A stretch of DNA of 63,727 nucleotides, filler included, from Cercozoa sp. M6MM (lineage: Eukaryota > Protista > Endomyxa: Ascetosporea), in NCBI GenBank assembly GCA_040357565.1. It is 10 parts of 10 records of this genome, joined end to end, with 100 filler letters (N's around TTAATTAATTAA, not from the genome) between each part and the next. Parts side by side here need not be neighbours in the genome. Positions count along the whole stretch, not along the records: positions 1 to 17,195 come from JBDODJ010000268.1; 9 more parts are not named here. One strand, written 5' to 3'. Below the pieces are notes generated by a model. That model ran no database searches. It was given only the letters and a program-made list of their open reading frames with translations, and was not told the DNA's origin. Both the position numbers and the translations under genes were made by a program. Below are positions 7,579-62,000 of the stretch, piece after piece. The stretch's first letter is position 1. Each line of letters begins with the position of its first letter.

Positions 7579-10500
7579 ATGCGCCGGCTGCTGGCACATT
7601 TGCATCTCTTGGCGAAGAGCATGCGATCGGTCGATGAGGAGTGAGTTTATCGCAGTCTTTTGACTAATATAAGTGACTTGTGCTGTGGCGGTACAGTGTG
7701 GTGCAGATGCTGGGCGAGGCTCCGCTTTTCACCTTGCGTTTGCCGAGCGTACACCCTCCGAGTTCCCTGTCCGGCTTGTGGTCCAAAGTGTTTGTGCAGG
7801 AGATGCTTATTATTACCGCTTCATCGCGAATCGCACTTTTGCAAGCGAATCGTGTTGCCCCATTGGCCGATGTGTCAGGTATACTCTAAGATACAAGACG
7901 CGCTTAAAATGTGTGGTGAATCTTTGTTTCTAACTAACCCGCATTTGCAGTGGAGGTGCATGGTGAGGTCATTTCGTACAAATGGCCTGGTCAACAACGG
8001 TATAAATATACATGGTGGTACGAGTGCGTGGTGCACATTATATAATTTAGGGAGCAGTTCACCGTCTTGACAGAGAGTGCGAATTTACTGCGCTTTTGCT
8101 TATCCTTGTACGTCATACACTAAATTTCGTATGTGCGTGCGAGTGTTTGTTTGTCTGTGTGTATTTGTTTTGTTATTTGAACCGAAGAGCACGTGGGACG
8201 TGTGAGAGCTTGAAGAACGCTGACACATTTGTCAGTATTGCGACTGTCATACAGGTTCAGAATCCCGACACTTTTGTGTTTTCAGGTGTCATGTACGCTG
8301 TAGCTTCTCCTTGACAACTGCAATGTTCAAGACATCGAGGATGTGGACGATGTGTCTGCTCTGTCGCCGCAGCAGATGGCGCAACTTCGCGCCATATCTG
8401 CTGGTGATAGCTTTCGTTTCGTGTACCCATGTTTCCGTTGTATTCGGTTGTTCAGAGGGCTACGGGCAGTTGCTACGCGAGTCATTGCGTCGCTTAGTTC
8501 TGTCCAGTTTCGATAAAAGCATGGGCTCAACGATGTCGCGTGTACATGTTGACGCTACTGTTGGTACCTTTTTATGCTTTTTATTGATTTGGGGGGTTGC
8601 ACTGTCTGTTTCCAGAGTTGCCGCCGTTAAACGACGGACAGGCCCAAATGTTGGCGGATTTCTTGCTCGAGCACGCCAACTCATTGGGTTTCCTTCTTGG
8701 GGTCTTTTTTAATTCTTTTACAATTATCAAACATCTTATGTAGACGAAGTTCCTCAATGGCACAGTCATTTGACGCAGTCACTCGACGAAGTTAGCTGCT
8801 TTGTTTTGTGCTCTGTGGTGGAAGATGTTCTGTGTGTCAGTAGGCACGCACTCAAGCTCAACAACAAGAACGAAATGCGGTTTTTCTTGTTCTCAACAGA
8901 CAGAAAATTCAGCAGGAACATCAGACGGGTTACGAAGGCTGCACTGCTGCGGCCTTGGAACAACTGGTTTTCCTTTTGTTCAGTGAGACTGTTCCAAAAC
9001 GAATCTTGTTCTGCAAATGCACAGCACGAGTCGATTACGCGACAAAGTGGCAAAATGGTGTCGGCAAAAACGGCGCTGGTGGGTTTATTGAGTTTTTTCG
9101 TCGGCTGTCTCATAAGCATCTTGATTGTTTTTTTTTAAAGCTCGGACTCTCCTCGCGTGATGCCGCCCGACATGCGCGAAAACAAAATATGATAGCTCTT
9201 CGAAGCGCGTTGATGGCTCAGCTTGCGCGTGGTGACGTTGATTCTAACACTGTGGTACGATTCGGTCTTAGTTTCTTAGGTTTATGCAGTGGCGAGTATT
9301 GCTGGTACATAGGTGACATTGCAAAAAGCTGCAAATGGGGTTTCAACCGCTGCTACTGCGCTAAGACTGGCCGAGGTATCGACATGAGATGGGGTTTTGT
9401 GTGCTTCAATTCCGTATGCATTTTTTTGACTCTTTTTTTGTTAGGCCATCAAGGTTGTGATAAAACGACACCGTTCGCTTGGCTTGGAAGATTCTACCGT
9501 GAGCATCATCATATCATCGAGCATCGTCCTGTCAGAATTTTTTTTTTTTTTGCTGAGTAGCAACCCTCGTTGCCCGCTGAAGCAAAAAAAGATTTGCGCA
9601 ACCAATACCAGCGGCTGGTGGTACCGTTTTAATTTGTGTCCTGCTTTTCGTGGGATTTTTGGATAGGTATCTGCCGCCACCGACGTAGTCGAGACAGTGC
9701 GTGCCCGCTTGGCTAATTCTGCATCAATGGGTACCGATTTCTTTCCACGCTAAAATGCAGATACCGCACTTCTTGTAGCCGGCCCTTCGATGGGCCAAAC
9801 CTGGTCTCGGATTGATGAAGAGTACTGGCAAGGACACTCGCTTCGCTTGCATTGTGAAGCTGCGGTGCTTGTACGTTTTATCACTTGATTTAGAGGTGAA
9901 TGAGTCGTTTGTTTTTATTTGACCGACTCTGTCCTCTGATTGCCTTTATTTTTCAAACAGGATATCATGGATGATACGACGCGAGCGATGTTGGAGCAAT
10001 TGCGACCATCGTGGCCTGCTGCGCTTCACTCGGAAATCACTAAGGTTTCGCCTGTGCTGCAGGCGTTTCTTGGATCCGGTAAAATCATGTTTCAATGTAG
10101 CTAAGCAAAAATCGCAATACTCGTAGTATATTGTAGAAACGGATGGCGTACTGACCGAAATGCGACGTTTACATCACGAATACATGGTGTTTTAGTGTAT
10201 CTATCCTCTGATCGCTCGCATTTTTCTGTTCATGTAGGAGCATGTCACAGCCTTTTACGATAGAAGCATTACCCAGCGAAAGGAAGGTACCCTTTTCTTT
10301 ATTTTTCGCTGGTGTCGAGCGGCTTGTGGCTGTAGCGCTGCGAAAGGCAGCGAAGCACTGGGTGGCAAAATCAGTGCACCGCCAATCTCTAACTCACGCC
10401 CCACTTTTCAACTTGGGTGCAACATCGGCTCCACAGAACTCACCTGGTACAGACATTTTTGGGATGCGGATTTCGCGCCATTTGTCAGCATCAAAATCGA

Positions 10501-12554: not shown

Positions 12555-12881
12555 ATCGTCAGGATGTTGAATATGCTACTCGCATGCGTGACTTGGTGTG
12601 GGCGTGTGTGAGAGCTCGCTACTGCGACGAAGTTCACATTTTGTACAGTTCCTTTGGTGTTGTCATTTGTTCGTATTGTGCTTGTGCGCGTGTGTGTGCG
12701 TGTGTGTGTGTGCGCGTGTGTGTGGTGTGTGTGTGTGGTGTGTGTGTGTAGATGTTTGTTTATGGGTAGTGCCAGATTGGCGATTCAGGTGTACAGAGAG
12801 CACGAAGATCTTGTTTTGGCTTTACGACTACTGACCAACAGTGAAAGATTCTGGCCTCCTTCGGTTGGGTTGGCATGTTGA
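7579..12881 (+). CDS. large multi-exon hypothetical (largely helical) protein
   Basis: Many + strand protein-like exons between GT-AG introns, e.g. LEPLTDQCSALFKECSGMGDRDAVSLLAHMHHL..., LQWIQRAALADDVKYAHLFTLQQLRFLAL... The last exon ends ...DLVLALRLLTNSERFWPPSVGLAC* at 12881. The start is uncertain and this could be more than one gene. Confidence 0.45.
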
Positions 12882-12918
12882 AGTTAGTCGAGTTAGCTGA
12901 GTCTTATATGAACCAACG

Positions 12919-15900
12919 GGTATGGCGGGGTTTTTCGAGGCAAAATCGGATAATACCGCACTCAAATTGCTTTTATTGGATATTGTCGGATCTGTTTCCT
13001 GCACAGATTGACCGTTTAGTGTGTCTAACATGTTGCCTGTTAAGAATTTAACTCATTCTAGTACTTTTAAGACGGGCTCAGAATGTAGGCCTGAGCATTT
13101 TTCTGTTTTATCTTGCGATTTTTCAGTTTTTTTGCCTGAGAAAGTACCCTTTTTTGTCATGTCTACGCGTTGTTTACAGCAGTTGGACGACTTTTTCGAC
13201 CGTTTTACGTTCGACAGAGCCTTTCCGAACGATGGGTCGTTATTTCCTTTCGTGTTAGAGCGTTTTTTCGGTCCAAATGCAGGACGGTGGCCCACCTGCT
13301 GCCGCGGTCACTCGAAAAACAACATGCGAGTGCGAGTGAAGCTGTTGAATGGTAATTGACAAACGCGTGTATGGGTGTTGGTGTGTATTGTTCTTGCTTG
13401 TGCTTGGGGCTGTGTGTTTAGCTTACTCGCGTATTTAAAATGTGCTCTTTGATGCTTGTTTAGAGAGTGCAGGGAGAGCACATGCTCATCACAGCGCGAG
13501 TTCTTCCAGTACCAAGCTCGGAACACGCTGGTTCCATCCGTCACTGCAAGACTTTGTGGCGCTTGGAAAACTCACGACGTTCAAGAAGTTTTTGAAGAAA
13601 AAGCAACAATTTGCTGAGTCGATGTCGACAGTGTTGCTGCCCCAAAGTGCTGTCTTTCGTGTTGCTTTTGTTTGTGACAAGTGCAAACGGTATTTAATGC
13701 ATTTGCCTTGACATTGTCGTCGAATAGTATGCATGTCTGCGATAGAGAAAAGCAGCTGCGTGATTGTGGCATTCCGAACTTCTTCGCTCCCCACCGCAAG
13801 CAACTCCACGAAGTACTCCGAGTTGTCCAGTGCGTCTGCCGAAAGCGCCGTGTGAGTGAAATTCAAGACGAAACTGGGCTCGGCAAAGACTTCATTCGCA
13901 GCGTCAAGAAGCACGTGTTTCAAGTGATGTACATGGCAGAAGTGGCACGCGAGAAGCAAAAGAAAATGAGTGGTCTCACCGAGGTATAGGATACCACACT
14001 TTAGCTTTCATTCAGTACTTACATGCGTAACCAGGTATTACTTTACATTTAGGTTGATGAGATGGGTGTGGGGCAGCCAAAGTTTCACATCGGTCACCGT
14101 GGTCGCCTGGCTGGAACAATGTGGGTACTCACTTTCGCGGAAGTGTCGGAGGTACGCACATGGCCCAGTCTTTTCCGCGTTTGCATATACGCGATGTCAT
14201 GTTGTTGCACAGACGACGCGCGACAACGGGACGAAAAAACGCGAGGTCGAAGAAGTTCGCTGGACGCTTGTGCCAAAGCGCGACAGTGACACGATTGGAC
14301 GGCATGTGCGCCAGCACATTGAACCCAAAACCATCATACAGGTATCGATTAAACACCGATTTGTGTTGTAAGTTGTAGTTTGTTTGCTAGACCGACAAAT
14401 GGCGAGCCTACTCCGAGTCGACGTCTCTTGTTGGCATGCAGCATTACCAGTGCAACCACTCCTCAATCAGGTACAGCATATTCTACTAGGTCAACAACAT
14501 CTTGCTGTTGTAAATTTATCTGGGGGTTCGATTTATGGCAGCACATTTTCGCGAACTGCCGCGGATGGCCAACTGGTGCACATCAACAGCGCTGAGGGTA
14601 TGCACAGCGTCGGCAAGCGATACTCAAGACGGATGAACGCACTACAGTCCGCCCGCACGCCTTCTGATGTTTGCTTGGCAATCAAGGCACTCCAATGGTA
14701 AGTTTAAGTTACTGTACCATCATGAAATGTAGAGCCTGTTCAAAAAACGTGTTTCCGCTTCTGGTAGGTTCATGAACTGCATCAAAATGGAAGCAAAGCA
14801 GCGCTGGTCTCGCTTGCTGGACGCGATGGTGGAGTATGGAGGTGAAGACATCAATGAGAACTACACCGACAGTGACAAAGAGTGGATGCTGTACTACGAG
14901 GATCGCATTCAACAAGCAAAGCTTGAACGCTCCAGAAACAACAGTGACACTGTAATTTGCTGTATTTCAAGGATACTGTTGTTTCATCTATCGTGCACTG
15001 GTAGGCCGAACCGACGAGCAATCTTCAAGAACAAGTCGAGCGAAGCTTGGCGCGAGCCGTCGAAGGCCCTGAAGATGAAGCAGCTCTGTTGAGTGACGTG
15101 TCACATGAGGACGAGACCAACGAGTTTGGTGATGAAACTTCTTGCACTGACTCGAGTGATGGCGATGAAAGCCCGTGTCTTCATCGACCTTCACGCCAAG
15201 TCGCACGACAGGGGCTGGTGCAGCGTCGCCTAGATGATGCTGCGATGCGCATGGAGGATGACGATTATTTTAACGCACGTGTTAGTGGTTAAATGTGTTC
15301 GCTATATGAGAATTCATACAAAAACTTCGCAAAAAAGAAAAAAAACGATATTTCGAGTCGGAATTTTACTTGATAAATTCCCATGTTGAGAATTATCAAG
15401 TCTGAAAAAACTGGAAAATAAACCTCTCTAACGTCGACGGTGCCGCTTTAAATTGTGTTCAGAGAGTGTCTTGGACTAATGTTGGTGCGTATCTAACAGT
15501 TTTGGCTCGGTTTCTGCAGGAAACAGATCCGCCATTAACCGCTTTTATTAGATGTACCACTGTATGCCCTGTTGTTAAAACAGTATTTTGTCACTACTAG
15601 TAAGCTCGAATCGGCGGTTTAGTGCGTTTTGATTCAGCAATTTCGAAAAAAGTCCGAAAAATTCTGTCATCCAAATGCGCTGTCGATGTTTTACTGTTTT
15701 TGCCCGTTTTACATTCAAATAAGCTCAAAATCCGAGGCTGAGTCGTCATCATCATCACTTTCGCCTATTATGTGCTCCAGAATACGACAGAGTGCATTCC
15801 GCTCTGCGCACATTGTCTTTTGTGCCCGCTGCCGCTTCGGTGGAGGCTGCGTCACCTCAACACGTTTAGGCAGGTCACTTGCTGTACGGCGATCTAAACA

Positions 15901-16017
15901 CAAATCAGAATCTTTGTGAGGCTTAAATACCGCTTAAACAACGATTTTCAGTGAAAATCTAGCGCTGTGCAAATGGCGATTTGATTCTGATCTTGCCTCG
16001 AAAAACCCCGCCATACC
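12919..16017 (+). mobile_element. Merlin / IS1595 (ISXO2-like) superfamily DNA transposon, 3099 bp
   Basis: Perfect 25-bp TIRs: GGTATGGCGGGGTTTTTCGAGGCAA (12919-12943) and its reverse complement (15993-16017), extending to about 32 bp with 2 mismatches. GG-starting TIRs enclose a DDE transposase. Confidence 0.9.
13159..15292 (+). CDS. intron-containing Merlin/IS1595-family DDE transposase
   Basis: Spliced translation: FVCDKCKR|EKQLRDCGIPNFF...SGLTE|VDEMGVG...MWVLTFAEVSE|...LVPKRDSDTIGRHVRQHIEPKTIIQ|TDKWRAY...HYQCNHSS|...VHINSAEGMHSVGKR...LQ|WFMN. This matches the IS1595 motifs E(V)DE, TDxWxxY, HxxVNHS and VHTNxxEG. Introns at 13984-14052, 14152-14212, 14342-14390, 14471-14541, 14698-14767 and 14952-15004. 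N-terminal exons are uncertain. Confidence 0.85.
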
Positions 16018-16739
16018 AACTACAGTAAACAGGGATCTCAGTGCCGATAAAACTTGAGCCAACAAGTAGATTTCATACTGATCAGTATACAAAGATGGCA
16101 CGTTTCACTGACCTCCAATATGTGCTCTATAAAATAAATAAGATTTACACTCGCCGTATGCAGAGCATCATTAGCGATCGGGCGCGTTGAGTGAAAATCG
16201 GGTTTCGTTGGCGGAAAAAAACATGAGTGCTAAGCCAGTGATAAGTCGTCGAGTCAACGTTGAAATTGAAGACGAAATACTCCTACTGGGTCTCGAGGTG
16301 ATCCCACTGGATCCCAACCGAAGGAAGCGTCCTTGGTCGTAATGCGTGAAAGAAAACTCCGCCTGTGAACACACACGACGAAGTGAGTGGAAATGGAACC
16401 AGCCAATGAGCCGACTGACCAGGTTGGAGCCGTCACGGAGCTTTCTGCTTCTCTGCAAGGACTCTGTCCAGGCAAGATCAACAGCTCCAGCAATCCACTG
16501 AGTCAGTAGTTAGGTCTCAGAGCAAGGTACCAACCAAGACACTCATAAACTTCTCTCAATCCTTCTTTCTTGGTTGAGACGTGGTCAAGACCTCCACGCG
16601 GACGGGTCAAGGCAATGCCTACTGTAAGTCTGCAGTAACACCTCACCCCTCCGAAGCTAATTGTCGCAGGGTTTTTCGAGCGCGTCAGCCGAATTGGTTT
16701 AACAGGGAGCGACTGACGTCGATGCTTTTGTCTGCTCGA

Positions 16740-17040
16740 CAGTGGAGGTTCGTTTTCGCACGCGAGAGTAGTCAACGCCAAAGTAAGGTTTCAAGGTGCG
16801 AACGTTGATGCTTCAAGCAGTAGTTCAGTCCCTTGTTCAGTCGCTCCACGACTACCCAAGGTCCTGACCAACGCGGCTGAAACTTCTTTGTGACACGTGG
16901 TTGTCCAACTAGAGGCGGCACTTTGGAGACATTAAACCACACGAGGTCGCCAGCTCCATATGCAACTGGTTGCTGCTCTGAGTTTCATGTTGCGTAAACC
17001 TTTGCTTGTTCTCGTTGATGTATATCCGCGAGTCGGCGTA
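16740..17040 (-). pseudogene. degenerate Ty3/Gypsy- or Ginger-type integrase C-terminal (GPY/F, SH3-like) fragment
   Basis: Reads YGAGDLVWFN...KKFQPRWSGPWVVVERLNKGLNYCL, then frameshifts to NVRTLKPYF. This matches the GDxVW...KLxPRWxGPY..V...HVxxLKPY pattern. Frameshifts are present. Confidence 0.7.
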
Positions 17041-17195
17041 AGGGATGAAGTATACGTCGCACGTTGGTGGAATAAGTTTTTATATCTTTGAGTGCTTTGT
17101 CACGTCAGTTTTCGCAATATAAGTTTACTTCTTTTTAGCGCGTTCTTCTGGTAGGAATGTGAGAATCAACATTCTGCGGTCGGACGAGCGAAACA

Positions 17196-17295
17196 NNNNN
17201 NNNNNNNNNNNNNNNNNNNNNNNNNNNNNNNNNNNNNNNTTAATTAATTAANNNNNNNNNNNNNNNNNNNNNNNNNNNNNNNNNNNNNNNNNNNN
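17196..17295. other. artificial contig spacer (N44-TTAATTAATTAA-N44)
   Basis: Identical six-frame-stop spacers also at 22268-22367, 27186-27285, 35895-35994, 47729-47828, 54345-54444, 57458-57557, 58911-59010 and 62297-62396. Plain scaffold gaps at 27344-27353 and 48341-48440. Confidence 0.98.
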
Positions 17296-32739: not shown

Positions 32740-35610
32740 GTTGAAGAGAGAGTTGTTTGTGCAGGTGCCTTTGAGCTGCAAGACGTTCGCAAGAAGCGAA
32801 AGAAGCGGAGGTACCTTTTGCAGCAAACAGACTCAGTTGTCATTACTGTCTCAATGTCGCACTGCAGGAAAAAGAAGCGCAAGACGGACGAGTCGGACGA
32901 AGAAGAAGAAGACGCGATTCTCGCCGAGGAAGAAAAGAACGCGCTGCAGCAAGAGGTGCCGTCTTGTCTCACCCGCTTCCCCCTACCCCCACCATACCCC
33001 TACCCCCACCTTACCCCTACCCCCACCTTACCCCTACCCCACCTTACCCCTACCCCTACCCCTTACCCCTTACCCCTTACCCCTTACCCCTTACCCCTGA
33101 CCCGCGTGTTGTTGACACAGGAAGTGCGACGTCGCGAGGAACTTGAGAAGAAGCGAAGGCGCGCCGTGGCACCTGGCCAGGAGCGAGACGCGCGCGGCCG
33201 CGTCGTGCTTAACACGGACCGCAAGGCGGACGAAACGCCGCTGGTACTGTCCAACTTATCCCTGCCCCCTTACCACTTTACCCTTTACCCTTTACCCTTT
33301 ACCCTTTACCCCCGTGTTGCAGCTGCTGTCGAACACGGTGTCGAAAGTGATAAAGCCGCACCAGCTGCGCGGCCTACGCTTCCTCTACGACAATGTACAA
33401 CTGTCCTCCTTGTCTCTGCTTAGGTGTGACTGTACCACACACACACACGCACGCACACACACACAGGTATTTGAGGGTGGCAAAGCCAACGACGCCATCA
33501 AGGAGCATCGTGACAAGGGTCCTTATACACCCGATGTATGCGTATGTATGTGTGTGTGTATGTATGTATGTATGTGTGTGTATGTATGTATGTGTGAGTT
33601 AATGATGACTGGACTGGTTGCCTGCAGGACTGGGCTGCGTGCTGGCACACCAGATGGGCCTCGGCAAGACGTTGCAGAGCATCACGCTGCTGTCGCTCGC
33701 GTGGCGCTACCGCCTGGCGAGACACATGCTCTGCGTCATGCCGGTCAATGTGCTCTGCAACTGGGACCAAGGTACCCTTTACCCCCTTCACGTTCTAGTT
33801 TTACCCCTACCTTTACCCCCGTTCACCTCTTACCCCACCCTCCTCTTAGAAATACGCAAGTGGTGTCCGAGAGGCAAGTGGCGTCCCACGATTTTTTTGT
33901 GCGATTCGAGTAAGTCGCACCTGGCTTACCGGAAGCATATGGGGATGTATCGATGTGTGTCTGTGTCTGTGTGTGTGTTGTGCCTAAGTAGCACTGCACC
34001 TGAAGAGACGCGTGCACCTGCTGTCGCAGTGGAAGAAGAAGGTAAGTTCTTGCCCCATTTACCCCCCCGCCCCCCGCTGGATATTGTATATAGGGCGGCG
34101 TCCTTCTGATTGGATACGATCAGTTTCGCTTGTTGGTAAAACTATATATATATATATATATATATATATGTCTACATCCATATATTTGTACATCTTGTCT
34201 TTGTATATGTGGTCTTGTCTATGTGTATGTGGTCTTGTCTATGTATATGTGGTCTGTGTATGTATGTATGTATACTTGGGAGCACAGGTACAAGGCAGTG
34301 GCAAGGCACTCAAGCAGTTCAACGACAAGAAGATTGAGTACACCTCATTCATACCCCCCTTACCCCTCCCCCATTACCCCTCGCAGACGGATACACAAGA
34401 CATTGACGCAAGTGCCGGACATTATCGTTCTCGACGAAGGTCACTGCATTAAGAACGACAAGGTAGCCCCTACTCCCTCACCCATCTCCCTTTACCCTGC
34501 CCCCCCCCAGGCACAAATCGCAATCGCGCTGAAGGAGATCCGAACGAAGCGACGCGTCATTCTGACTGGTGAGTCCCCCTGATTTCCCTCTACCTTGCCT
34601 ACCTTCACCCTCCCTTGCCCTACCTTTACCCATACCCCTACCCTACCCCTGCTGTCCTCGCTGCCCCTACCCCTCACCCACCCCCTGAACAGGCACGCCG
34701 CTGCAGAACAACCTGATGGAGTATTACCACATGATCGACTACGTCAGACCGGGCTTCTTTGAGTCGGAGGAGCGGTTCAAGCGACTGTTCGTGCGACCCA
34801 TCGGTAGGCACGCCCTTGTGTCTCTTGTGTCTCTGGGGGGTCTGTACTGGAGGGGGTCTGTGCTGTGCTGACGTCCGCGCGGACGTGCGCAGTGAACGGT
34901 CAGTCGGTGGACTCGACGCCGGCGGAGGTGCGGCGCATGCGGCAGCGCGTGTGGCTCATGTGCGACAAGATCCGCGGCTTTGTGGACCGGCAGGACTGCA
35001 GCGTGCTGGCGCGCAGTCTGCCGGCCAAGAGCGAGTTCGTCGTCTTTGTCTCGCTCAGTCGCACGCAGAAGCTGCTGTACCGGTGCTGCCCCCTGCGCTA
35101 CCCTTTACCTTTACCCCTCTTACCCCCCTCCGCACACACACAGGACCTTTGTAAGACGGTACCCAGGCACGGTAACTGCAACTGTTTTTGAGAGAGAAAG
35201 CTTTTGGCTGGATTTTGGACTGTGTGGTTTGTGGGAGGATGTGCAGAGACTGTTCGCGGCCTACCAGGTGTTGAGCAAGGTGTGGTCGCACCCGGATGCG
35301 CTGCTGCACCACTACCGGTATACGCACGTTTTACCCTTACCCTTACTTTTTACCCCCCCCCCCCCGTAGTGAAGCGGAGGGAGCCAATCAGGACGATAAA
35401 GTATCATCTATCCCTCTTACCCCCCTCTACCCCCTACCATTTCTGTTGTGAAGAAGAAGAAGAAGAAGTCGGCACCGAGTAGTTTACCCCTCCCTTCTCG
35501 GTGCACGTATGTGTACGACTGGAATGTGTATGTATGTGTACGTATGGGACAGCTGCCATTCCGGTGGATTGGTTTACGGACGTTTACTCACTGGCTGCCT
35601 CGCGAGGCGT
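31301..35610 (+). CDS. ATRX/RAD54L2-like SNF2-family chromatin remodelling ATPase (3' truncated)
   Basis: Motifs [50 protein letters not shown]|[27 protein letters not shown] and [21 protein letters not shown]. The N-terminus is acidic with AEPPV repeats and a poly-E/D tract (32400-32620). Confidence 0.92.
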
Positions 35611-37736: not shown

Positions 37737-39113
37737 TTAACGACCGCCAGTTGTGGCGACAAAGTGCCGCTTGCTGCCCTTGGCGGCCAGCACGGCCTGC
37801 ATGGCGGCGCTACTGTCCTTGATGGCCTGGTGCTTCTGCCGACTCTGCTGGACGAGACGACGCACCCGATCAGCGTCGGTGACGGCAGGTGCCTTGGCAG
37901 CGGCCACGGCGGCCTGCACGCGCGCACGCTCCTGCTGCTTCTCGAGTCGGCGCTGCTGCTTGCGTCGTCGCTTGGCCGCACGTTCGTCCGTGTCGTCCTG
38001 TTGCTCGTCTTGCTCCTGGTTCGGATCTGAGTCCTGCTTGGCGAGTTTCTTGAGGGCACGGCGGCGTTTCTTGGCCGCCTTGAGTGCGAGACGGCGCTGC
38101 TCGAGTCGGCGGAACTGCTCGTCGAGCTGCTCGCCCTGCGGGAAGAGTGGGATCACGCGCCACTCGGTATGCACGTCGCTCGGAAAGGCGAGCTGACACA
38201 CGGCGCACGCACGCGCACTTTCGCCTTGCGTCACGGCCGCTTGCTCCTGCTGCCGGTGCGCCGCTTGCGACAGCACGCAGCCGCAGTGCGGGTACGCCAC
38301 GAACGGACGCTGTCCATTGGCCGGCAACAGCAGCAACGGACAACGGAAGGCCGCCTTTCGCTCTTCTTCGCTCGCTGCGGCGTCGCTTTCGATTCGCTCA
38401 AGTTTCACATCGAAAAAATCCGATGTGCCTTTGATGTGCTCTACAAGACACACACACACTTTCATTCATCGAAACAAATCAAAAACAATCGAAGTACTCA
38501 GAGAAGGCGGCAGAATTTTCGTGGGTGTCAACAGGTACTCGAGCAAAGCTTCTTTACGCATCAACCGGCCGAGGTAGTCGCATACAATCGCACCTGTCCA
38601 ACACGTAACATCCAAAGTGTGAAGTTTCATTAGCTTTCAAATTCCAGCATTCAAGCTTCCAAAATTTGAGCTTTCTAATTTTAGAGTGAAAGACGTGAAC
38701 GAGCGTACCATCGAGTGGCTGGGCAGTCAGAAAACACGTGCGAAAAGTGTCTTCGCGCGACAGACCGGCACTCTTTGCGTCTGCTGAGATCTGTACAAAA
38801 GCAAAAAATCGGTCCCGAAAGGCGAAAAACACCAAAGCGAATCTACCCGTTTCTTTTGCGTAAAAGCAAGGTCAGAACGCTTCGGAATCGAACCACCGTC
38901 GCCACCGCCGCCTAGAAGTCGCAGATTCAGACGTAAATGCTCATCAGTCGAAAGGACAGCGCCCGCGCGGACGGGTCTTCCTTGTGATTGGGCCCAAACA
39001 AGCGAGGAAGGCACACCCAAACGAGCACACGCAGCCTGCAAAGCGGTTGAGACGTCCACCTCATCACCAGGCAGGTCAACGCTGACACTTTGGTTGAGAA
39101 ATGTGACCAACAT
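37737..39113 (-). CDS. RTF2: Rtf2 (replication termination factor 2, RING-like) with N-terminal ubiquitin-like domain
   Basis: ...LRLNLRLLGG-GGDGGSIPKRSDL|...TCFLTAQPLD|GAIVCDYLGRLMRKEALLEYLL|KHIKG..., FRCPLL...NGQRPFVAYPHCGCVLS...CAVCQLAF. Three introns splice in phase. Confidence 0.92.
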
Positions 39114-39390: not shown

Positions 39391-41169
39391 ATGAAATTGT
39401 TTGGGACCTTTCTGCTCGCTCTCAATGTTGTGGTACACAGCCTGGCTGCATTCTGTTGACTGATCCTGCTTGAACCATGCGTTGACTGTCTGAAAATCGC
39501 AGGCGCAACAGACCGTAGAGCTGAGCGATGCACTGCAACACGTGGAGCTGCCAGTGGTGCCGGAGCAGGATGTTGTCAGTGTGCACGTGCGACTGGACGG
39601 ACTCTCTGCCGTGCTGGTCAAGATGAGCAGCGACTCTGACGCTTTCCAACGCACGGTGCTTGCGCACGCGTCGCAGGTTCGAATGGAAGGCGACAAAACC
39701 GAATTCGACGCCAAAGCCGGTATTTTTCGAGTTGAGTTGAGTTGCTTTGCTTTGAGTTCAGTTGCTTTGCTTTTGAGTTGAGTTAATTTTGAGTTGAGTT
39801 GAGTTGAGTTGAGTTGAGTTGCTTTGCTTTGAGTTGAGTTGAGTTGAGTTGCGTTGCATTGCTTTGAGTTGCTTTGAGTAGTATTGGGTGAACAGGCGAG
39901 TCGGTGTCGTTTGAAGTGCCCGAAATTCCAGCGACAGGCGACGCAATCGCCACGCAGCACGAGTGGCGCTCGAGTGGTATGGATGCCTACTCGGTGCCGT
40001 CGTTCTGCAACGCCGACTTTCGCGGCGTTTTTCTGGTGCGCGATATGTCGCAACGCAGCTCTCTGATCAGCAACAAGCAGGACCTGGTCAAGAACGGCGG
40101 CGACATTGACTTCGAGCGGCAGGACCTTCTGGTGTTCTGCACCGGCAGTCGGCCTACGTCGGGCTACCTGCCCTCGATCGCGAGTGTGCGCGAGTGCGGC
40201 GACGCCGTCTGCGTTCAGCTGCGCGAAGAAACGCCGAAAGCACCAGCTTTGCAACAGATCACGCATCCTTTCGCTGCTGTCGTCATTTCGAAACTGTAGC
40301 TTTCACTCTCGCGACTCTTTCGCTTACAGCTTTGTCGCAAAGCTATGTCGCAAAGCAACGCTTTTTTGGTGTTGTTGCAGCAAGAAGCCGCTTGTGGCCG
40401 TGTACGAGAAGCCGGACGCGCCTGGCGAAATCGCGTTCGCCGAACTCATGCTTCTGGCCGAGTTGAAGTGGCTTGCAAGTGGTCGGTTTCGCTTTAGCTT
40501 TCGCCACTACGTGAATTGTCGCTTTAATTTCGCTTGGTTTGCTTTTGGTTTCGCTTGTTTCGCTTTAGTTTCGCTTGTTTCGCTTTGTCTCGCTTCAATT
40601 TCGCCCCTTTGTTTCACTTTGATTTCGCCTTGTTTTTTTTTCTACTTTGTTTGACTGTAGTGATTGAGCGATTTAGCATTTCGCTGCCGCGCTTCGTTTC
40701 GTTCCGTCGCTACGCGGGTCTTTTGATCGGTGGTCACGTGGTGACCTTCGTGTCGCTGTATCTGACACTGGCGCTCGCTGTTGCCGTTGCTTTTGGCGTG
40801 TCGCTGCAGGAGAAGCTTTGGAGCAGCGCCGACGTTGAAAGCGTCAACAAGAAGGACGAAACGCCGACTGCAGCGACTGAAGCGAGCGAATCAGAAAGTG
40901 CTGACTCAAGCATTGAGTCTGAAGAACCGCAACGACTCAAGAAACGACGAGCGAAAGCGACGCCAACTCGTAAGACACCGACTCGAACTCGAAAGACACC
41001 GGCGCAAGGCCAAGCCGCTGCTGCTGCAAAGAAAGTCAAGGCGCCGAAACAAAGCCAACACGAAGAAAGCGAAGAAACGCTCGGCGCTCGCTTGCGACGC
41101 CGTCCGTCGCGACGTGCGGCCGTCGAGGCACGCAAACATTTTCAGGACGACCGTGGAGTCACTCGCTAA
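39391..41169 (+). CDS. signal-peptide / PrcB_C-like domain / TM protein with basic cytosolic tail
   Basis: MKLFGTFLLALNVV|AQQTVEL..., then IDFERQDLLVFCTGSRPTSGYLPSIASVRECGDAVCVQLREETPKAPALQQITHPFAAVVIS, which fits the PrcB C-terminal pattern GxRPTxGY...QxITxP. TM segment VVTFVSLYLTLALAVAVAFGVSL. Confidence 0.72.
39728..39880 (+). repeat. intronic (GAGTT)n pentanucleotide repeat
   Basis: Visible directly; fills the intron at about 39720-39895. Confidence 0.9.
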
Positions 41170-43539: not shown

Positions 43540-44819
43540 CTAACTGACAAAGGAGGCGATGGCATCGGCCATATCGCGCTCGTGCAGCTGGAGATCACGG
43601 CAGAGCTCAAAGTGCTGCCGGGCCCTCAACAGATTCTGCTGCGGCCGTGTCTTGTGGTAGTACACGTCGCCGCACAGGTAATCACTCAGGAAGCGGAGGC
43701 ACTGCATATAGCTCATGAAGGCCGGCGCCAAATGCAGCGTCGAGCACTCGGCGTGCGTCAGACGGGAGGCCGCGCGAGACAGCCAGGCCTGCGCAAACGC
43801 GCGAAACACGGCGTCGTCGAAGCGTGCCGACTCACGGAACAAGGCGCGAATCGCGTCGCCGAAGTCGCTGTGCGCCAGACCGGGCATCACCGTGTCCAGA
43901 TCGATCACGGTGGCGACACCACTCGTTGCGTCCAGCAGCACACTGCAACCCAGTCAAGTTAGACCTTTCACCGACACAAATACTTCACCCTAGCAAAGAT
44001 ACTTGTCGACATTGGTGTCGTTGTGAGTGACACGACGCGGCATCTTCTGCAACGTGTGCTGCCAGAACGACAGCATCGAAGCTTCATGCCACTTCAGCAG
44101 TTTTAGCAAGCCTCGACACTCGACGACACGGCCGCATACGTCGTTTTCCACGGCACTAACACACAACAATTCAGTCTGGTCAACAGAATCCCACAAAATA
44201 CAATGAGATACCGGTGCAGCTGCTCAACTCGCAGCGACATGTCGTGAAATCTCGGAATAGTTTCGACCAGCGCGTTCGTGTCCATGTCAGCCAACGCGCC
44301 AAAGAAACCGCCGAACGCGTCGCCAACAGCACGCGCCGTAGCCACACGATCCTCTGTCCAAACACAAAACAGAACAAACAGCATTAACTGCACAGTAAAT
44401 TAAGGAAAAATGCTTTCAACCAACCAAAGCAAGTGCGCACGTTCATGACACGACGCTGCAGTCGCCAGACCTCGCCATCGCCGACACGAAGAAACAATCG
44501 GTCAGTGCCAGGTGGCCGCACAAATTCCGGAATGCACGTGCGCTCAGATTGATTGTGCAGGTACTTCTCAATCTGTGCGATGTTCGCGTGCAGCGCTTCC
44601 ACATTCTTGAACACGCCTGTGTTGACTCGTTGCAACACAAACCACTCTAAGAGCACCTGCAAGTAGACTGCATGTTATGCATAGAAAACTAATTATACCA
44701 GAACAAGTGGTGTGCACAAAGTAGGTCCAGTTTATGCTGCCTCCCGACGTCACGGGCTCGTGGGAGGCAAGTTCATAGCCAAAATCACGTAGCACCGCTG
44801 CCAGATGCTCTCGTGTCAT
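43540..44819 (-). CDS. APH-family phosphotransferase, N-acetylhexosamine 1-kinase (NahK)-like
   Basis: Motifs GSINWTY, FVLQRVNTGVF, ETIPRFHD, RVTHNDTNVDN|VLLD, VIDLDTVMPGLAHSDFGDAIR, LRFLSDYLCGDVYY and NLLRARQ. About 4 introns. Confidence 0.88.
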
Positions 44820-45076: not shown

Positions 45077-47334
<2,258 letters not shown>

Positions 47335-54828: not shown

Positions 54829-55789
54829 GCTGGCTGAGTACCTTGGGCCACAGCTGCTTCTGTCGCCAGTCGGCAAAGTCATCCTCCAGGCAGTAGTCGT
54901 CATCGCCTATCGACAAGGTTTGTGTACTCTACACACATACGCCTCCAAAGTAAGCAGGTACCAAGACCCACGTCACAGACGCGCTTGGCACCCAATTCCT
55001 ACAAGAGCAAGGAGAGTGCATATGACCCGCGCTGTGCCTGTCGTAGCCTACCTCAAAACGAGTGTCAAAGAACTTGGCAACGGCGTTGTAGAATTCGTAT
55101 TGCGTGTTGCCTGCAGAAACGCACGTGCGTGGACAAATACCATATAGACATCACCAAAAGGAAAATACCCAGACCAAAGACGGCAAAATTGACATCTTCC
55201 AGATCGTCCGTACGCTCCTGCAACACCCAGCACAAGTGTCAGTGCAAGAAAAGTCACAACGTCTGCTACCTTAATATGCTCGTAAAGTGCGATCGTGGAA
55301 TCAGTTGGCTCACCTTCGCCATGCGTCGCCATAAGCAGCACCTTTGTTCAAGCACAACAAGCATTGCAACAATACGCTCGTGACATTCAATATCAAAAGG
55401 AACCACGAAGGAATGATCGTTCAGGGAATCGGCATCAAATTCAGCTGCGTCCACCACAGTCGTGGCGAAACCTGGGCACAACACATTTCTAGCCAGTGCC
55501 GCGGTACATACAACAAACACAGTGGTACCATAAGCCTTGGCCTCAGCTTCGAGCACGAAAGCGTAGCCCTCGGCCGTGCCGCTCTGCGAACCGTATACAA
55601 TGGTCATTGCCGCCTCGCCGTCAACTACACCCCTCTCGGACGGCGCTTTGCCGGTTTCTGCGGAAAGAAAAGAATACAGAAACCCAAGCAGCCGAAAAGG
55701 AAATACAACTCACTCTTCGCCGACTTGGGCGCGCTGAATAACTTCCATGCCACGAGCGCCACAAGCGCGGTTAGCACCCACAACAGCAT
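54490..55789 (-). CDS. POR: NADPH-cytochrome P450 reductase, 5' part (TM anchor + FMN domain)
   Basis: N-terminal TM MLLWVLTALVALVAW, then TIVYGSQSGTAEGYA, MATHGEGEPTD, FAVFGLG|NTQYEFYN, LGAKRV and GDDDYCLEDDFADW. Confidence 0.93.
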
Positions 55790-59079: not shown

Positions 59080-62000
59080 CTTGTTTGACGCCGAGTGTCG
59101 GCAGAAAAAAGTCCTCTGCTCGCAGTGGCCGGTCTGTTGAAGTAGGGTAAAGGAGGTAGGGGTAGAGGGGGTAGGGGTTAAGAGGGTAGGGCTAAAGGAG
59201 GTAGGGGTAGAGGGGGTAGGGGGTAAAGGGGTAGGAGATAAAGGCTTAGGAGAGAGGTAAAGGAGGTAGAGGGAGGAAGAAGGTAAGGGGTTAAGGGGTT
59301 CAGGGGTTAAGGGTGGGGGGAAGAGGGTTAAGGGCGGGTGGGGGAAGAGGGTTAAGAGCGGGTGGGGGAAGGTATAAACTGGGCCAACCCAGATCAGTGG
59401 GCGGCGAGCCTCGCAGTCGCCCGATCAGCGTACTGTAGCATCTGGGGGGGGGGGGGTAAATAGGGGGTTAAACATGGGGGGTAAACGGGAGTAAATAGAG
59501 GAGCAAATAGGGGAGGGGGTAAATAGTGAGGGAGGGGTAAAGAGAGGAATAAACAGGGTGGTCAAAAGAGGGATAAACAGGGAGGTAACAGGGGGGTAAA
59601 CAGAGAGGTAAGCAGAGGGGTAAACAGAAAAGTAAACAGGGGGGTAAACAGGGGGGTAAACAGGGGGGTAAACAGGGGGGTAAACAGGGGGTAAACAGGG
59701 GGTAAACAGGGGGTAAACAGGGGGGTAAACAGGGGGAAATAGGAAAGTAAACAGGGGGGTAAACAGGGGGGTAAACTCGTACAGATTGTGCGCCACAATG
59801 ACACTCGGGTACAAGGAGCGGAAGTCCAGCACAGCCACCGGCGACACCAAGAGTCGAGCCGCCGACTCGAGCACCAAGGGCGCGCACTCCATCGCGTCCT
59901 GCGCGCGCACCTGCTGCGCCGACGCCGACGGCAGCGCCACGCCCAGGCCGCGAGTGGCGCGCAGCAGCAGCGCTTCCACGCGGAACTGCGCTCCGCGCGT
60001 ATGCACTTCCTCCACCTACGGGGTTTTATTCCGCGCGTATGCACTTGGGGCAGGGGCTGAGGGAAACCTTGATGCCGACGATCCGCGCGTATGCGGCACT
60101 GCGCCGAACGACGCCGCCGCGCGCAAGCACGCCGAGGTTCAGCGCGGCTTTGCGCGCCAGGTGCCGCTGCATCTCGGCGTCGTCGCACGCGCGCTCGCAC
60201 ACACTCGCCGTCCGCGCGGATCCCGCGCCGCGCCGCCGTTTCTCGCCTGTCTGCGCACGAGTGCAACAATTTAAAACAACAACAAAACAACAGCAACAAA
60301 CAACAACAACAAACAATAACAACAAACAATAACAACAAACAATAACAACAAAAACAACAACAAACAACAACAAAACAATAACAACAAACAACAACAACAA
60401 ACAACAACAACAAACAACAAACAACTAAAACAACAACGTACGCGACAAGCGCGCCAAACCGCGGCGAATCCGCGCGTAAGGTCGGCGTCGAAAATGCGCG
60501 GAAAACGCTGCTTCAGCACCCACCTGCATCCACACGGGGGGAAGGGTAAGGGTAAGGGTAAGGAGGTATAAGGGGTAAAGGGGTAGAAGTTAAGAGAGGT
60601 GGCTATGGGGGCTAATAGGGGATAAACAGGGGGTAAGAGGGGAGTAGACAGGGGAGTTGGCGAGGTAAGAGGATAAGATAGGGGGGGGGGGTAAGAGGGG
60701 GGGTAAAACCGAGCCAGGGCCTCGCGAGTGTATCGAACGAGTCGCATCTCCATGCGCATGGTGCGCATCCTAAGACGAATACAAGTGGTATTTGGGTCAG
60801 TGCATCCGCGCGGAAAGCACAGTGCACAAGAAACGCACATGGACAGCACGATGCGACCGTCCAGGCGGACAAGGTTGTTTCGATTCAGGTCGAACTCGAC
60901 GACGTCGTGACCGGTGCGTCCCAGCGGCAGGCATGCCAACTGACCGGGAGTAAGGGGGGTAAAGGGTAAAATGGGTAAAGGGGGAGGGGTAGGGAGGGGG
61001 GTAAAGGCGGACAATACCTCCAGTGACACCGACCGTGCATGCAACGCCTCCAGTGTCTCCTTCGTGTCGTAGCTGCACACTACGGGGAGGGTAAATAGAG
61101 AGGGAGTAAATAGGGGGGGGGGTAAATAGAGGGGTAAATAGGGGTAAATTGGGGGGGAGGGTAAACAGGGGGTAAACAGGGGTTAAACAGGGGGGTAAAA
61201 CTACCAATGTCCGGGTCCAAGCAGCGAAACAACACGGCACAAGATTCCAGCATTTTCGCTTCCGCGCGGTCGCTCTGCACGAATTTAAAATACCAAAACA
61301 AAAAACAAAAAAACGAGTCACCTCGGAGTCGTCGACGATGACGTCTAGCAGTCGAATTTTCGCGTTTTTTTCGTCGCGCAGCTGCCGCAACTCGCTCGCC
61401 TTGTCGCTGCCAAAATAGGGGGGGGGTAAAGGGAGAGTAAAGGGGGGTAAAGGGAGGTAAGAGTAGGGATAAACCCACCGTGCCACTGCCAAACAGTGCG
61501 TCGAACTGCGTGCTATGGTACCTGCGACGGGAGGGGCGGGGAGGGGTAGGGGGTAAAGAGATTAAGGGCTAGTAAGGGTTAAGGGAGGTAAACGAGAGGG
61601 GGTAAAGGCACAGATGAGAGTGACGCGCTCGAGACTGCAGCCGTCATTTTCTGTATTTTACTCCTCTCGAAAAATACAAAAACAAAGATACAACAAATGT
61701 GCACCACAGGGCAGCAGCAGGTTCTCGACGACGGCGCAGATTCCAGCCACCTGCCGCTCGTCGCTGCGCAGAGAAATACAACAACAGCGCTCCAAAAACA
61801 ACAACAACGAGGCGTCCGCGCGGACGCAGGAAAACAACGAAGCAAAAATAAAAAGGGCAACCCGACGCGCGCGTGGCACACCTCGACGGAGCACAGTGCG
61901 TACAGAGCGACGGTGTGCGACAGCAGGTGCTTCTCCGCGTCACCGTCACTGGCACGTGCCCCACTGGCACGTGTCCCACTGGCACGTGTCTCACTGGCAC

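What the first reader, a model, noticed from the sequence alone, without database searches (positions are those of the whole stretch)
12919..16017. Merlin/IS1595-family transposon whose transposase is split by at least six short spliceosomal introns
Seen: perfect 25-bp TIRs, and a DDE transposase that reads through only after removing 49-71-nt GT-AG introns. Two introns fall immediately before catalytic motifs (E|VDE and IQ|TD). Known: Merlin is the eukaryotic branch of bacterial IS1595/IS1016, and described transposases are mostly intron-free or intron-poor. Inference: this lineage has acquired host-like intron density while keeping intact TIRs, so it either evolved long-term in an intron-gaining host or uses splicing to regulate transposition. 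It lies only 37 bp downstream of the predicted stop of the neighbouring gene. The 8-bp flanks (AACCAACG vs AACTACAG) match at only 5/8, so a TSD is not established.
Basis: partly seen in the sequence, partly recalled or inferred. Interest (0 to 1): 0.75.

Follow-up and report, generated by a model that had tools for sequence, protein, structure and literature searches.

The report
Eight-intron Merlin transposon in an amoeba
This is a multi-copy jumping gene of the Merlin type, likely from a marine rhizarian amoeba, whose enzyme gene reads through only after eight short, host-like introns are removed; it likely gained them in this very intron-rich genome and is likely the first clear Merlin element from that protist group.

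Summary
Confirmed and extended. The 3,099-bp element (12919-16017) has perfect 25-bp TIRs with GG ends, and contigs of one DNA run leave it at both ends into differing flanks, so it is multi-copy. Removing eight GT-AG introns (seven of 49-71 nt, one of 112 nt) gives an unbroken 530-aa ORF; no frameshift near 13535 is needed. Four public protein models named 'Cercozoa sp. M6MM' use the junctions of introns 1-6, one of them out of frame, which points to RNA evidence; I saw no reads. Two pass the Pfam DDE_Tnp_IS1595 cut-off; triad D221/D297/E340. Intron size and GC match a host kinase gene. No TSD at this insertion (5/8); the right flank is another repeat. Best reading: a recently mobile Merlin-type element that took on introns in an intron-dense host. 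Splice control of transposition stays open: three of four models stop inside an intron before the last catalytic residue. Intron-bearing transposases are known (P, Ginger1, CACTA); a 2021 Merlin survey mentions no introns and calls Merlin in Rhizaria unclear. This scan noted intron-packed Merlins before, on other DNA (dicyemids).

The parts
12919..16017 (+). Whole element, 3,099 bp
   Evidence: TIR pair; loose ends of 5 contigs before about 12917 and 10 contigs behind 16017, agreement about 0.5
12919..12943 (+). Left TIR, 25 bp, starts GG
15993..16017 (-). Right TIR, perfect match to the left
12978..13003 (+). Subterminal inverted repeat, left arm (88% to 15515-15540); possible second transposase binding site (inferred)
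15515..15540 (-). Subterminal inverted repeat, right arm
13159..13351 (+). Exon 1: ATG and IS1595-like N-terminus with a Cys-Cys-x2-His motif
   Evidence: same in P0004; 3 of 4 listed variants synonymous; aligns to zinc-ribbon N-termini of two bacterial IS1595 proteins; Atlas lead 0.90
13352..13463 (+). Intron 1, 112 nt, phase 1 (alternative acceptor 13472, 121 nt)
   Evidence: P0003 uses 13463, P0004 uses 13472
13464..13689 (+). Exon 2, ends in a Cys-x2-Cys motif; no frameshift
   Evidence: variant 13471 synonymous in this frame
13690..13745 (+). Intron 2, 56 nt, phase 2
   Evidence: spliced in P0002, P0003, P0004, not in P0001; one contig has 3 substitutions and 1 insertion, all inside it
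13746..13983 (+). Exon 3, likely helix-turn-helix region
   Evidence: aligned to IS1595 profile; helical in an otherwise poor model
13984..14052 (+). Intron 3, 69 nt, phase 0, one codon before D221; holds in-frame stops
   Evidence: spliced in P0001, P0002, P0004; P0003 stops in it
14053..14151 (+). Exon 4 with first catalytic D221 (codon 14056-14058)
14152..14212 (+). Intron 4, 61 nt, phase 0
   Evidence: spliced in P0001, P0002, P0004
14213..14341 (+). Exon 5
14342..14390 (+). Intron 5, 49 nt, phase 0, one codon before D297
   Evidence: spliced in P0001, P0004 and, out of frame, in P0002
14391..14470 (+). Exon 6 with second catalytic D297 (codon 14394-14396)
14471..14541 (+). Intron 6, 71 nt, phase 2, lowest pyrimidine share before the acceptor (0.41)
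   Evidence: spliced in P0002; P0001 and P0004 stop in it
14542..14697 (+). Exon 7 with third catalytic E340 (codon 14594-14596)
   Evidence: aligned to the third IS1595 motif; this part is absent from the protein used to pick the seeds
14698..14767 (+). Intron 7, 70 nt, phase 2 (no public model reaches it)
   Evidence: a 5-nt deletion in another copy lies inside it
14768..14951 (+). Exon 8
14952..15004 (+). Intron 8, 53 nt, phase 0 (no public model reaches it)
   Evidence: a 1-nt insertion in another copy lies inside it
15005..15292 (+). Exon 9, acidic tail and stop
12911..12918 (.). Left 8-bp flank, 5 of 8 matches to the right flank
16018..16025 (.). Right 8-bp flank, next to a separate high-depth repeat

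Best explanation
This is a multi-copy, TIR-bounded Merlin/IS1595-type DNA transposon whose 530-aa DDE transposase gene is split by eight GT-AG introns of host-like form, which it likely gained while residing in an intron-dense rhizarian amoeba and which are likely removed as ordinary introns by the host spliceosome. Shown here: the TIRs, the several flanks, the unbroken spliced ORF, the IS1595 domain and the D221/D297/E340 triad. Supported at second hand: splicing of introns 1-6 (public gene models). Inferred: the spliced protein binds the TIRs through its zinc-ribbon-like and helix-turn-helix N-terminus, cuts and pastes the element, and also moves short and deleted derivatives with the same ends; the introns came from the same host process that filled host genes and are tolerated rather than selected, since a DNA transposon has no RNA intermediate that would strip them. 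The missing TSD at this site likely reflects flanks from two different events (rearrangement or assembly join).
For: Spliced model scores 60.2 bits against an IS1595 profile of 34 bacterial-type proteins; the three unspliced frames score 8.3 or less and the best of 200 shuffles 5.5 (101 were reported). P0001 and P0004 pass PF12762 (31.5 and 29.8 bits, cut-off 27); best Atlas hit is a eukaryotic PF12762 cluster at 0.95. All four public proteins are rebuilt from the window by these junctions, with 0, 1, 1 and 7 differences. P0002 needs introns 5 and 6 spliced downstream of a frameshift (228 of 235 residues, against 198 or 173 without), which a coding-based predictor would hardly choose; that annotation used transcriptome reads. 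Host kinase: 11 introns of 53-69 nt, GC 0.38, exon GC 0.53; element: GC 0.40 and 0.52, lengths not different (p 0.30). The named species averages 10-13 introns per gene. Among listed variants, 5 of 7 exon substitutions are synonymous and 3 of 4 indels in the gene fall in introns, which are 25% of it (p 0.053). In the 13335-13775 stretch 82 of 124 contigs are 99% or more alike. No joint at any intron boundary is listed in the DNA run.
Against: No RNA read was seen; introns 7 and 8 rest on sequence and two indels alone. None of the four public models encodes the full protein, and three stop inside an intron. Gain in this host is not shown: no close relative outside this species was found, so intron positions could not be compared. 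No TSD at this site. Density is about half to 60% of the host's. Variant tables were cut (40 of 85 substitution rows and 12 of 24 indel rows). The profile seeds were first picked by likeness to P0001, so the score is partly circular up to intron 6. P0003 is letter-identical to this copy and may describe this very locus.
Confidence: 0.72

Rival explanations
1. Splicing controls transposition, as in the P element: intron 3 or 6 is usually kept, giving a protein that still binds the TIRs but lacks the catalytic core or the last catalytic residue and so represses the element.
For: Three of four public models stop inside intron 3 (P0003, 165 aa, N-terminal part only) or intron 6 (P0001, P0004, no E340). 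Intron 6 has the lowest pyrimidine share of the eight acceptors (0.41; host kinase 0.53-0.82). Precedent: the P element 66-kDa repressor from a retained third intron (PMC5443660, passages). Two introns lie one codon before catalytic aspartates (p 0.008-0.08).
Against: Such models also arise from fragmentary or unspliced transcripts, from reads shared among copies, or from a copy with a damaged splice site. P0002 has introns 2-6 all spliced. All 8 donors are GTA, not weak. The adjacency test was chosen after the fact.
Confidence: 0.2
2. The introns are kept by selection because this host expresses intron-less messages poorly; any long-resident transposon must carry regularly spaced introns.
For: No intron-less copy is listed among the contigs laid; the longest exon is 288 nt; the named species has 13 introns per gene. 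Intron-dependent expression in some algae is recalled, not checked.
Against: Long uninterrupted ORFs occur in the window. A DNA transposon has no easy way to lose introns, so their presence in all copies needs no selection. Nothing here measures expression.
Confidence: 0.15
3. The introns were inherited from an older intron-bearing Merlin lineage or came in by transfer from another intron-rich eukaryote.
For: The protein is far from everything searched except this species, so its history is unknown. Unchecked scan notes report intron-packed Merlins in other hosts.
Against: Size and GC match this host's introns; those in the dicyemid notes are 22-34 nt, again host-sized. The 2021 Merlin survey has no occurrence of 'intron' in text or in 11 supplement files.
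Confidence: 0.15
4. The family is no longer mobile; this copy is an intact-looking relic or a consensus made by the assembler.
For: No TSD, no empty site in the run, no full-length public model, and defective copies exist (a 1-nt deletion at 13567; the P0002 frameshift; internally deleted contigs).
Against: Perfect TIRs, intact ORF and triad; another locus differs by 1 of 324 residues; a 314-nt contig of this copy's 3' region has no difference and the depth of unique flank, so that part is not a consensus.
Confidence: 0.2

Closest known systems
Merlin superfamily of eukaryotic DNA transposons (Feschotte 2004, not seen; as described in Lopes et al. 2021, PMC8101967)
   Same: [quoted passage not shown]
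   Different: Eight introns (the survey never uses the word); 530 aa against 181-445 aa for the protist proteins whose lengths I read there; zinc-ribbon-like N-terminus, which the survey found in only a few Merlins; TSD not seen at this site; likely host group (Rhizaria) listed there as unclear.
Bacterial IS1595 family, including IS1016 (PF12762, PF12760, NF033547)
   Same: Same catalytic domain; 27-29% identity over part of the protein to annotated IS1595 transposases on plasmids; similar N-terminal layout.
   Different: Spliceosomal introns, nuclear setting among eukaryotic genes, long acidic tail; below the NF033547 cut-off (54.8 against 75, on truncated proteins).
Intron-bearing transposases: P element (3 introns, PMC5443660), Ginger1 (1-4, PMC2836005), CACTA (1-6 exons, PMC4158355), Salpingoeca rosetta (4 of 7 genes, PMC6875170)
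   Same: Cut-and-paste transposase genes interrupted by GT-AG introns.
   Different: Other superfamilies; fewer introns where numbers were seen; regulation by retention is shown for P, not here.
Introners (intron-generating transposons)
   Same: Link between transposons and intron gain.
   Different: Here the transposon carries the introns. The eight are not copies of each other (1 of 28 pairs at p 0.02) and their boundary repeats (3-5 nt) are no longer than the host's.

Membership tests
Merlin superfamily | TIRs of 24-462 bp | tested here: met
   25 bp perfect, 32 bp at 94%; definition from PMC8101967
Merlin superfamily | Terminal 5'-GG | tested here: met
   both ends; ends confirmed by loose ends of other copies
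Merlin superfamily | DDE_Tnp_IS1595 domain | tested here: met
   PF12762 31.5 and 29.8 bits, cut-off 27, on public proteins 99% identical to this copy; own profile on the spliced model 60.2 bits
Merlin superfamily | Intact DDE triad | tested here: met
   D221, D297, E340 align to the three motifs
Merlin superfamily | 8- or 9-bp target site duplication | tested here: inconclusive
   Not present at this one insertion (5 of 8, 2 of 9), whose right flank is another repeat; both flanks of other copies could not be read. Membership is therefore likely, not complete.
Merlin superfamily | Eukaryotic, not bacterial contamination | tested here: met
   Contiguous with intron-rich eukaryotic genes; needs splicing
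Merlin superfamily | Groups with eukaryotic Merlins in a tree | not tested
   No eukaryotic Merlin sequences from other species were obtained; Atlas top rows are mixed (0.95 eukaryotic, 0.94 bacterial)
Bacterial IS1595 family | NF033547 curated cut-off (75 bits) | tested here: not met
   54.8 and 52.8 bits, E about 1e-14, on C-terminally truncated proteins
Bacterial IS1595 family | Single uninterrupted ORF | tested here: not met
   Longest ORF pieces 133 aa or less on the coding strand, no Pfam hit unspliced
Bacterial IS1595 family | N-terminal Zn_ribbon_IS1595 domain | tested here: inconclusive
   No PF12760 hit; Atlas feature score 0.90, TM 0.40; visible likeness in alignment
P-element-type splice-regulated transposon | Regulated intron retention giving a repressor | not testable with these tools
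   No RNA run could be laid; only truncated public models
Introners | Introns form a repeat family with TIR and TSD | tested here: not met
   No likeness among the eight or elsewhere in the window beyond 13-14-nt words; only the window was searched

The most novel reading that the evidence does not exclude
A still-mobile transposase gene of bacterial IS1595 descent gained eight spliceosomal introns de novo in a 13-intron-per-gene amoeba whose intron source is unexplained, and uses retention of introns 3 and 6 to make TIR-binding, catalytically dead repressors: an independent origin of P-element-style splice control in a Merlin, and a dated record of intron gain.
Probability: 0.15. Interest if true: 0.78.

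Novelty: new variant of a known kind. Interest (0 to 1): 0.5.

Why it matters
First, the 2021 survey left Merlin in Rhizaria unclear because all hits could be bacterial contamination (PMC8101967); an element that needs eight introns removed and sits among host genes cannot be that. Second, the IS1595 ancestor had no spliceosomal introns, so all eight are gains. The genome paper of the likely host found no Introner signal and left the source of its introns open (PMC13746701), so its transposons are a test set for intron gain. Third, the unspliced DNA gives no Pfam hit. That paper left ten TIR families unclassified; this may be one of them (inferred), which suggests that transposases are missed in intron-dense protists. 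It is not a new kind of system.

Tried and rejected
No whole genome was held, so copy number and TSDs could not be counted directly. No RNA holder listed. Runs X2 and X3 held next to nothing. Pfam on raw ORF pieces, single exons and stop read-throughs gave no IS1595 hit (one read-through was in the wrong frame and was redone). Word-based homolog searches found nothing or only the same species. TIR and protein scans of metagenome contigs found nothing, nor did phages. PF12762 searches of four unrelated records gave no seeds. The single-sequence AlphaFold model was unusable (pLDDT 34), so no fold search was run. One of five seeds (L009) was the wrong frame and was dropped. Rejected: frameshift near 13535. 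Rejected: the Cys-containing alternative frame at 13453-13617, which only a G-AG acceptor reaches, in which variant 13471 is missense, and which public models do not use. Not favoured: a 9-nt microexon at 13422-13430, which needs a 33- or 42-nt intron. Not favoured: TAA/TAG reassignment, since the modelled kinase and transposase exons hold no internal TAA/TAG. Rejected: introns as copies of each other. Scan look-ups by place and sequence were blank, as was the first word look-up.

Full report
Observation. The element runs from 12919 to 16017 with a perfect 25-bp inverted repeat beginning GG, 94% over 32 bp, plus a 26-bp subterminal inverted pair at 12978-13003 and 15515-15540. No other TIR copy lies in the window. 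The 8-bp flanks match at 5 of 8, and no length from 2 to 12 is a perfect repeat. The predicted stop of the left neighbour lies 37 bp away.

It is a repeat family. One DNA run (X1) holds the stretch; it may be the window's own source, and no RNA holder was listed. Of its contigs 1,414 lie on 12760-17150. Five leave the sequence just before the left TIR and ten just behind the right TIR, with consensus agreement near 0.5, so the flanks differ. One contig joins 12944 to 15980 over 29 other bases, a 93-bp element with both ends; a 1,816-nt contig carries several internal deletions. No listed joint coincides with an intron, and none restores an empty site. A variant-free contig at 13568-13663 has depth 4,044 against about 480-585 for contigs that look single-copy. 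That suggests some ten copies, though the tool warns that depth is no copy number.

Gene model. Removing eight GT-AG introns joins nine exons into a 530-aa ORF from 13159 to 15292, and keeping any one truncates it. Seven introns are 49-71 nt; the first is 112 nt. A full HMMER search with the in-frame exon 3-4 stretch found 2 proteins among 1.84 billion. With their cluster members these are four NCBI models from three loci named 'Cercozoa sp. M6MM'. All four are rebuilt from the window using my junctions: P0003 exactly (introns 1, 2), P0004 with one difference (intron 1 with acceptor 13472, introns 2-5), P0001 with one (introns 3-5), P0002 with seven and a 1-nt deletion in exon 5 (introns 2-6). 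In P0002 introns 5 and 6 are spliced although the frame is already lost (228 of 235 residues against 198 or 173). That annotation used transcriptome reads and funannotate's update step (PMC11069148 section 15). From recall, this step adds RNA-based models and isoforms and numbers new genes last, which fits locus numbers 9662-9670 of 9,694 models. This is second-hand support for introns 1-6; I saw no reads. Introns 7 and 8 rest on the ORF and on one indel each in other copies. Among listed variants, 5 of 7 exon substitutions are synonymous and 3 of 4 indels in the gene are intronic (one search showed 40 of 85 and 12 of 24 rows). The suspected frameshift near 13535 is not needed.

Protein. P0001 and P0004 pass the PF12762 cut-off and hit NF033547 at about 1e-14 but below its cut-off. 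The Atlas lists PF12762 clusters first, the best eukaryotic at 0.95. A profile of 4 annotated plasmid IS1595 proteins and 30 of 120 homologs scores the spliced model 60.2 bits, unspliced frames 8.3 or less, shuffles 5.5 at most, and places D221, D297 and E340 on the three motifs. The seeds were picked by likeness to P0001, but the E340 motif lies beyond P0001's end. The N-terminus resembles the IS1595 zinc ribbon, but only as a lead (no Pfam hit), with about 75 extra residues between the two metal-binding pairs.

Host. A kinase gene at 46990-45080 has 11 introns of 53-69 nt in the 1,122 nt modelled (9.8 per kb; GC 0.38 against 0.53 in exons). The element has 5.0 per kb (GC 0.40 against 0.52), and lengths do not differ (p 0.30). 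The named species, now Lemnamoeba sinaloensis (Rhizaria, Apofilosa), has 10-13 introns per gene, mean 82 bp, and abundant AC:GT repeats, as the window does. The host is therefore likely this species or a close relative.

Missing TSD. The left flank has single-copy depth. The right flank is another high-depth repeat with a weak Tf2-type integrase SH3 hit at 16775-16984 (E 2.7e-4, under cut-off) and a purine run followed by TGT at 16640 on the minus strand, likely the 3' part of a Ty3/gypsy-type element. The two flanks likely come from different events, by adjacent deletion, recombination between copies or an assembly join. I could not tell these apart.

Mechanism. Most likely an ordinary Merlin-type cut-and-paste element whose message is spliced like a host gene, the introns having accumulated in this lineage and been tolerated (0.72). 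Splice control (0.2) has one real hint: three of four models stop inside intron 3 or 6 and so lack E340 or the whole core, as the P element repressor arises from a retained intron (PMC5443660, passages). Fragmentary transcripts explain this as well. Two introns beside catalytic aspartates is a weak, after-the-fact signal. The introns are not copies of each other.

What is known. PMC8101967 (abstract, passages, first part of section 11, word search of 11 held supplements; two alignment files unreadable) defines Merlin, never uses 'intron', and calls Merlin in Rhizaria unclear. PMC11069148 (abstract, passages, section 15) has no 'Merlin' in its main text; its supplements were not searched. PMC13746701 (passages, section 7, word search of 4 supplements) names no Merlin or IS1595 and leaves ten TIR families unclassified; its repeat library was not visible and may hold this family. 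Intron-bearing transposases: PMC6875170 (passages), PMC2836005 (passages), PMC4158355 (abstract). Nine library searches listed no paper on an intron-rich or rhizarian Merlin. Feschotte 2004 and Repbase were not seen and could describe Merlins with some introns. Unchecked scan notes report 5-6 tiny introns in dicyemid Merlins, so the pattern is not unique to this host.

Verdict. Real; a new variant of a known kind. It works like a Merlin and meets every tested criterion except the TSD, which is absent at this one site and untested for the family. Interest 0.5.

Noticed in passing
window 12919-12944 joined to 15980-16017 (run X1): A 93-bp derivative with both ends and 29 unrelated bases between, MITE-like; a second contig joins 12947 to 15980.
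   Followed up: partly
run X1, 1,816-nt contig on 13236-15092: A diverged copy with at least four internal gaps of 129-526 nt, not at intron boundaries.
   Followed up: no
window 16018-17195: High-depth repeat with a weak Tf2-type SH3 hit (16775-16984, minus) and a purine run plus TGT at 16640; likely the 3' end of an LTR retrotransposon, cut by the assembly gap at 17196.
   Followed up: partly
window 13352-13463: Intron 1 holds a good-looking unused acceptor at 13421 (70 nt, the usual size), after which all three frames stop within 45 nt; public models use 13463 and 13472. A small exon may have been lost here.
   Followed up: partly
window 46990-45080, minus: AGC-type protein kinase with 11 modelled introns of 53-69 nt; a twelfth, before a hydrophobic-motif-like exon near 45170, was seen by eye.
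   Followed up: partly
window 33609-34106, 37740-38465, 39892-40296, 43543-43953, 55269-55709, 59428-60015: Host gene pieces with Pfam hits: SNF2, Rtf2, PrcB_C, APH phosphotransferase, flavodoxin, DNA polymerase B. PrcB_C and APH look bacterial in type; transfer was not tested.
   Followed up: no
window 17196-17295 and similar gaps: Assembly gaps of 44 N, a 12-base AT linker and 44 N, often beside AC:GT microsatellites; an artefact that makes false palindromes.
   Followed up: no
window 12882-12918: The element sits 37 bp after the predicted stop of a multi-intron host gene without Pfam hit, probably within its 3' UTR; read-through could feed transposon transcripts.
   Followed up: no
window 15293-15992: A 700-nt 3' region; its distal part (15648-15961) differs among copies and holds a 98-codon ORF (15623-15919) without a meaningful Pfam hit.
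   Followed up: partly
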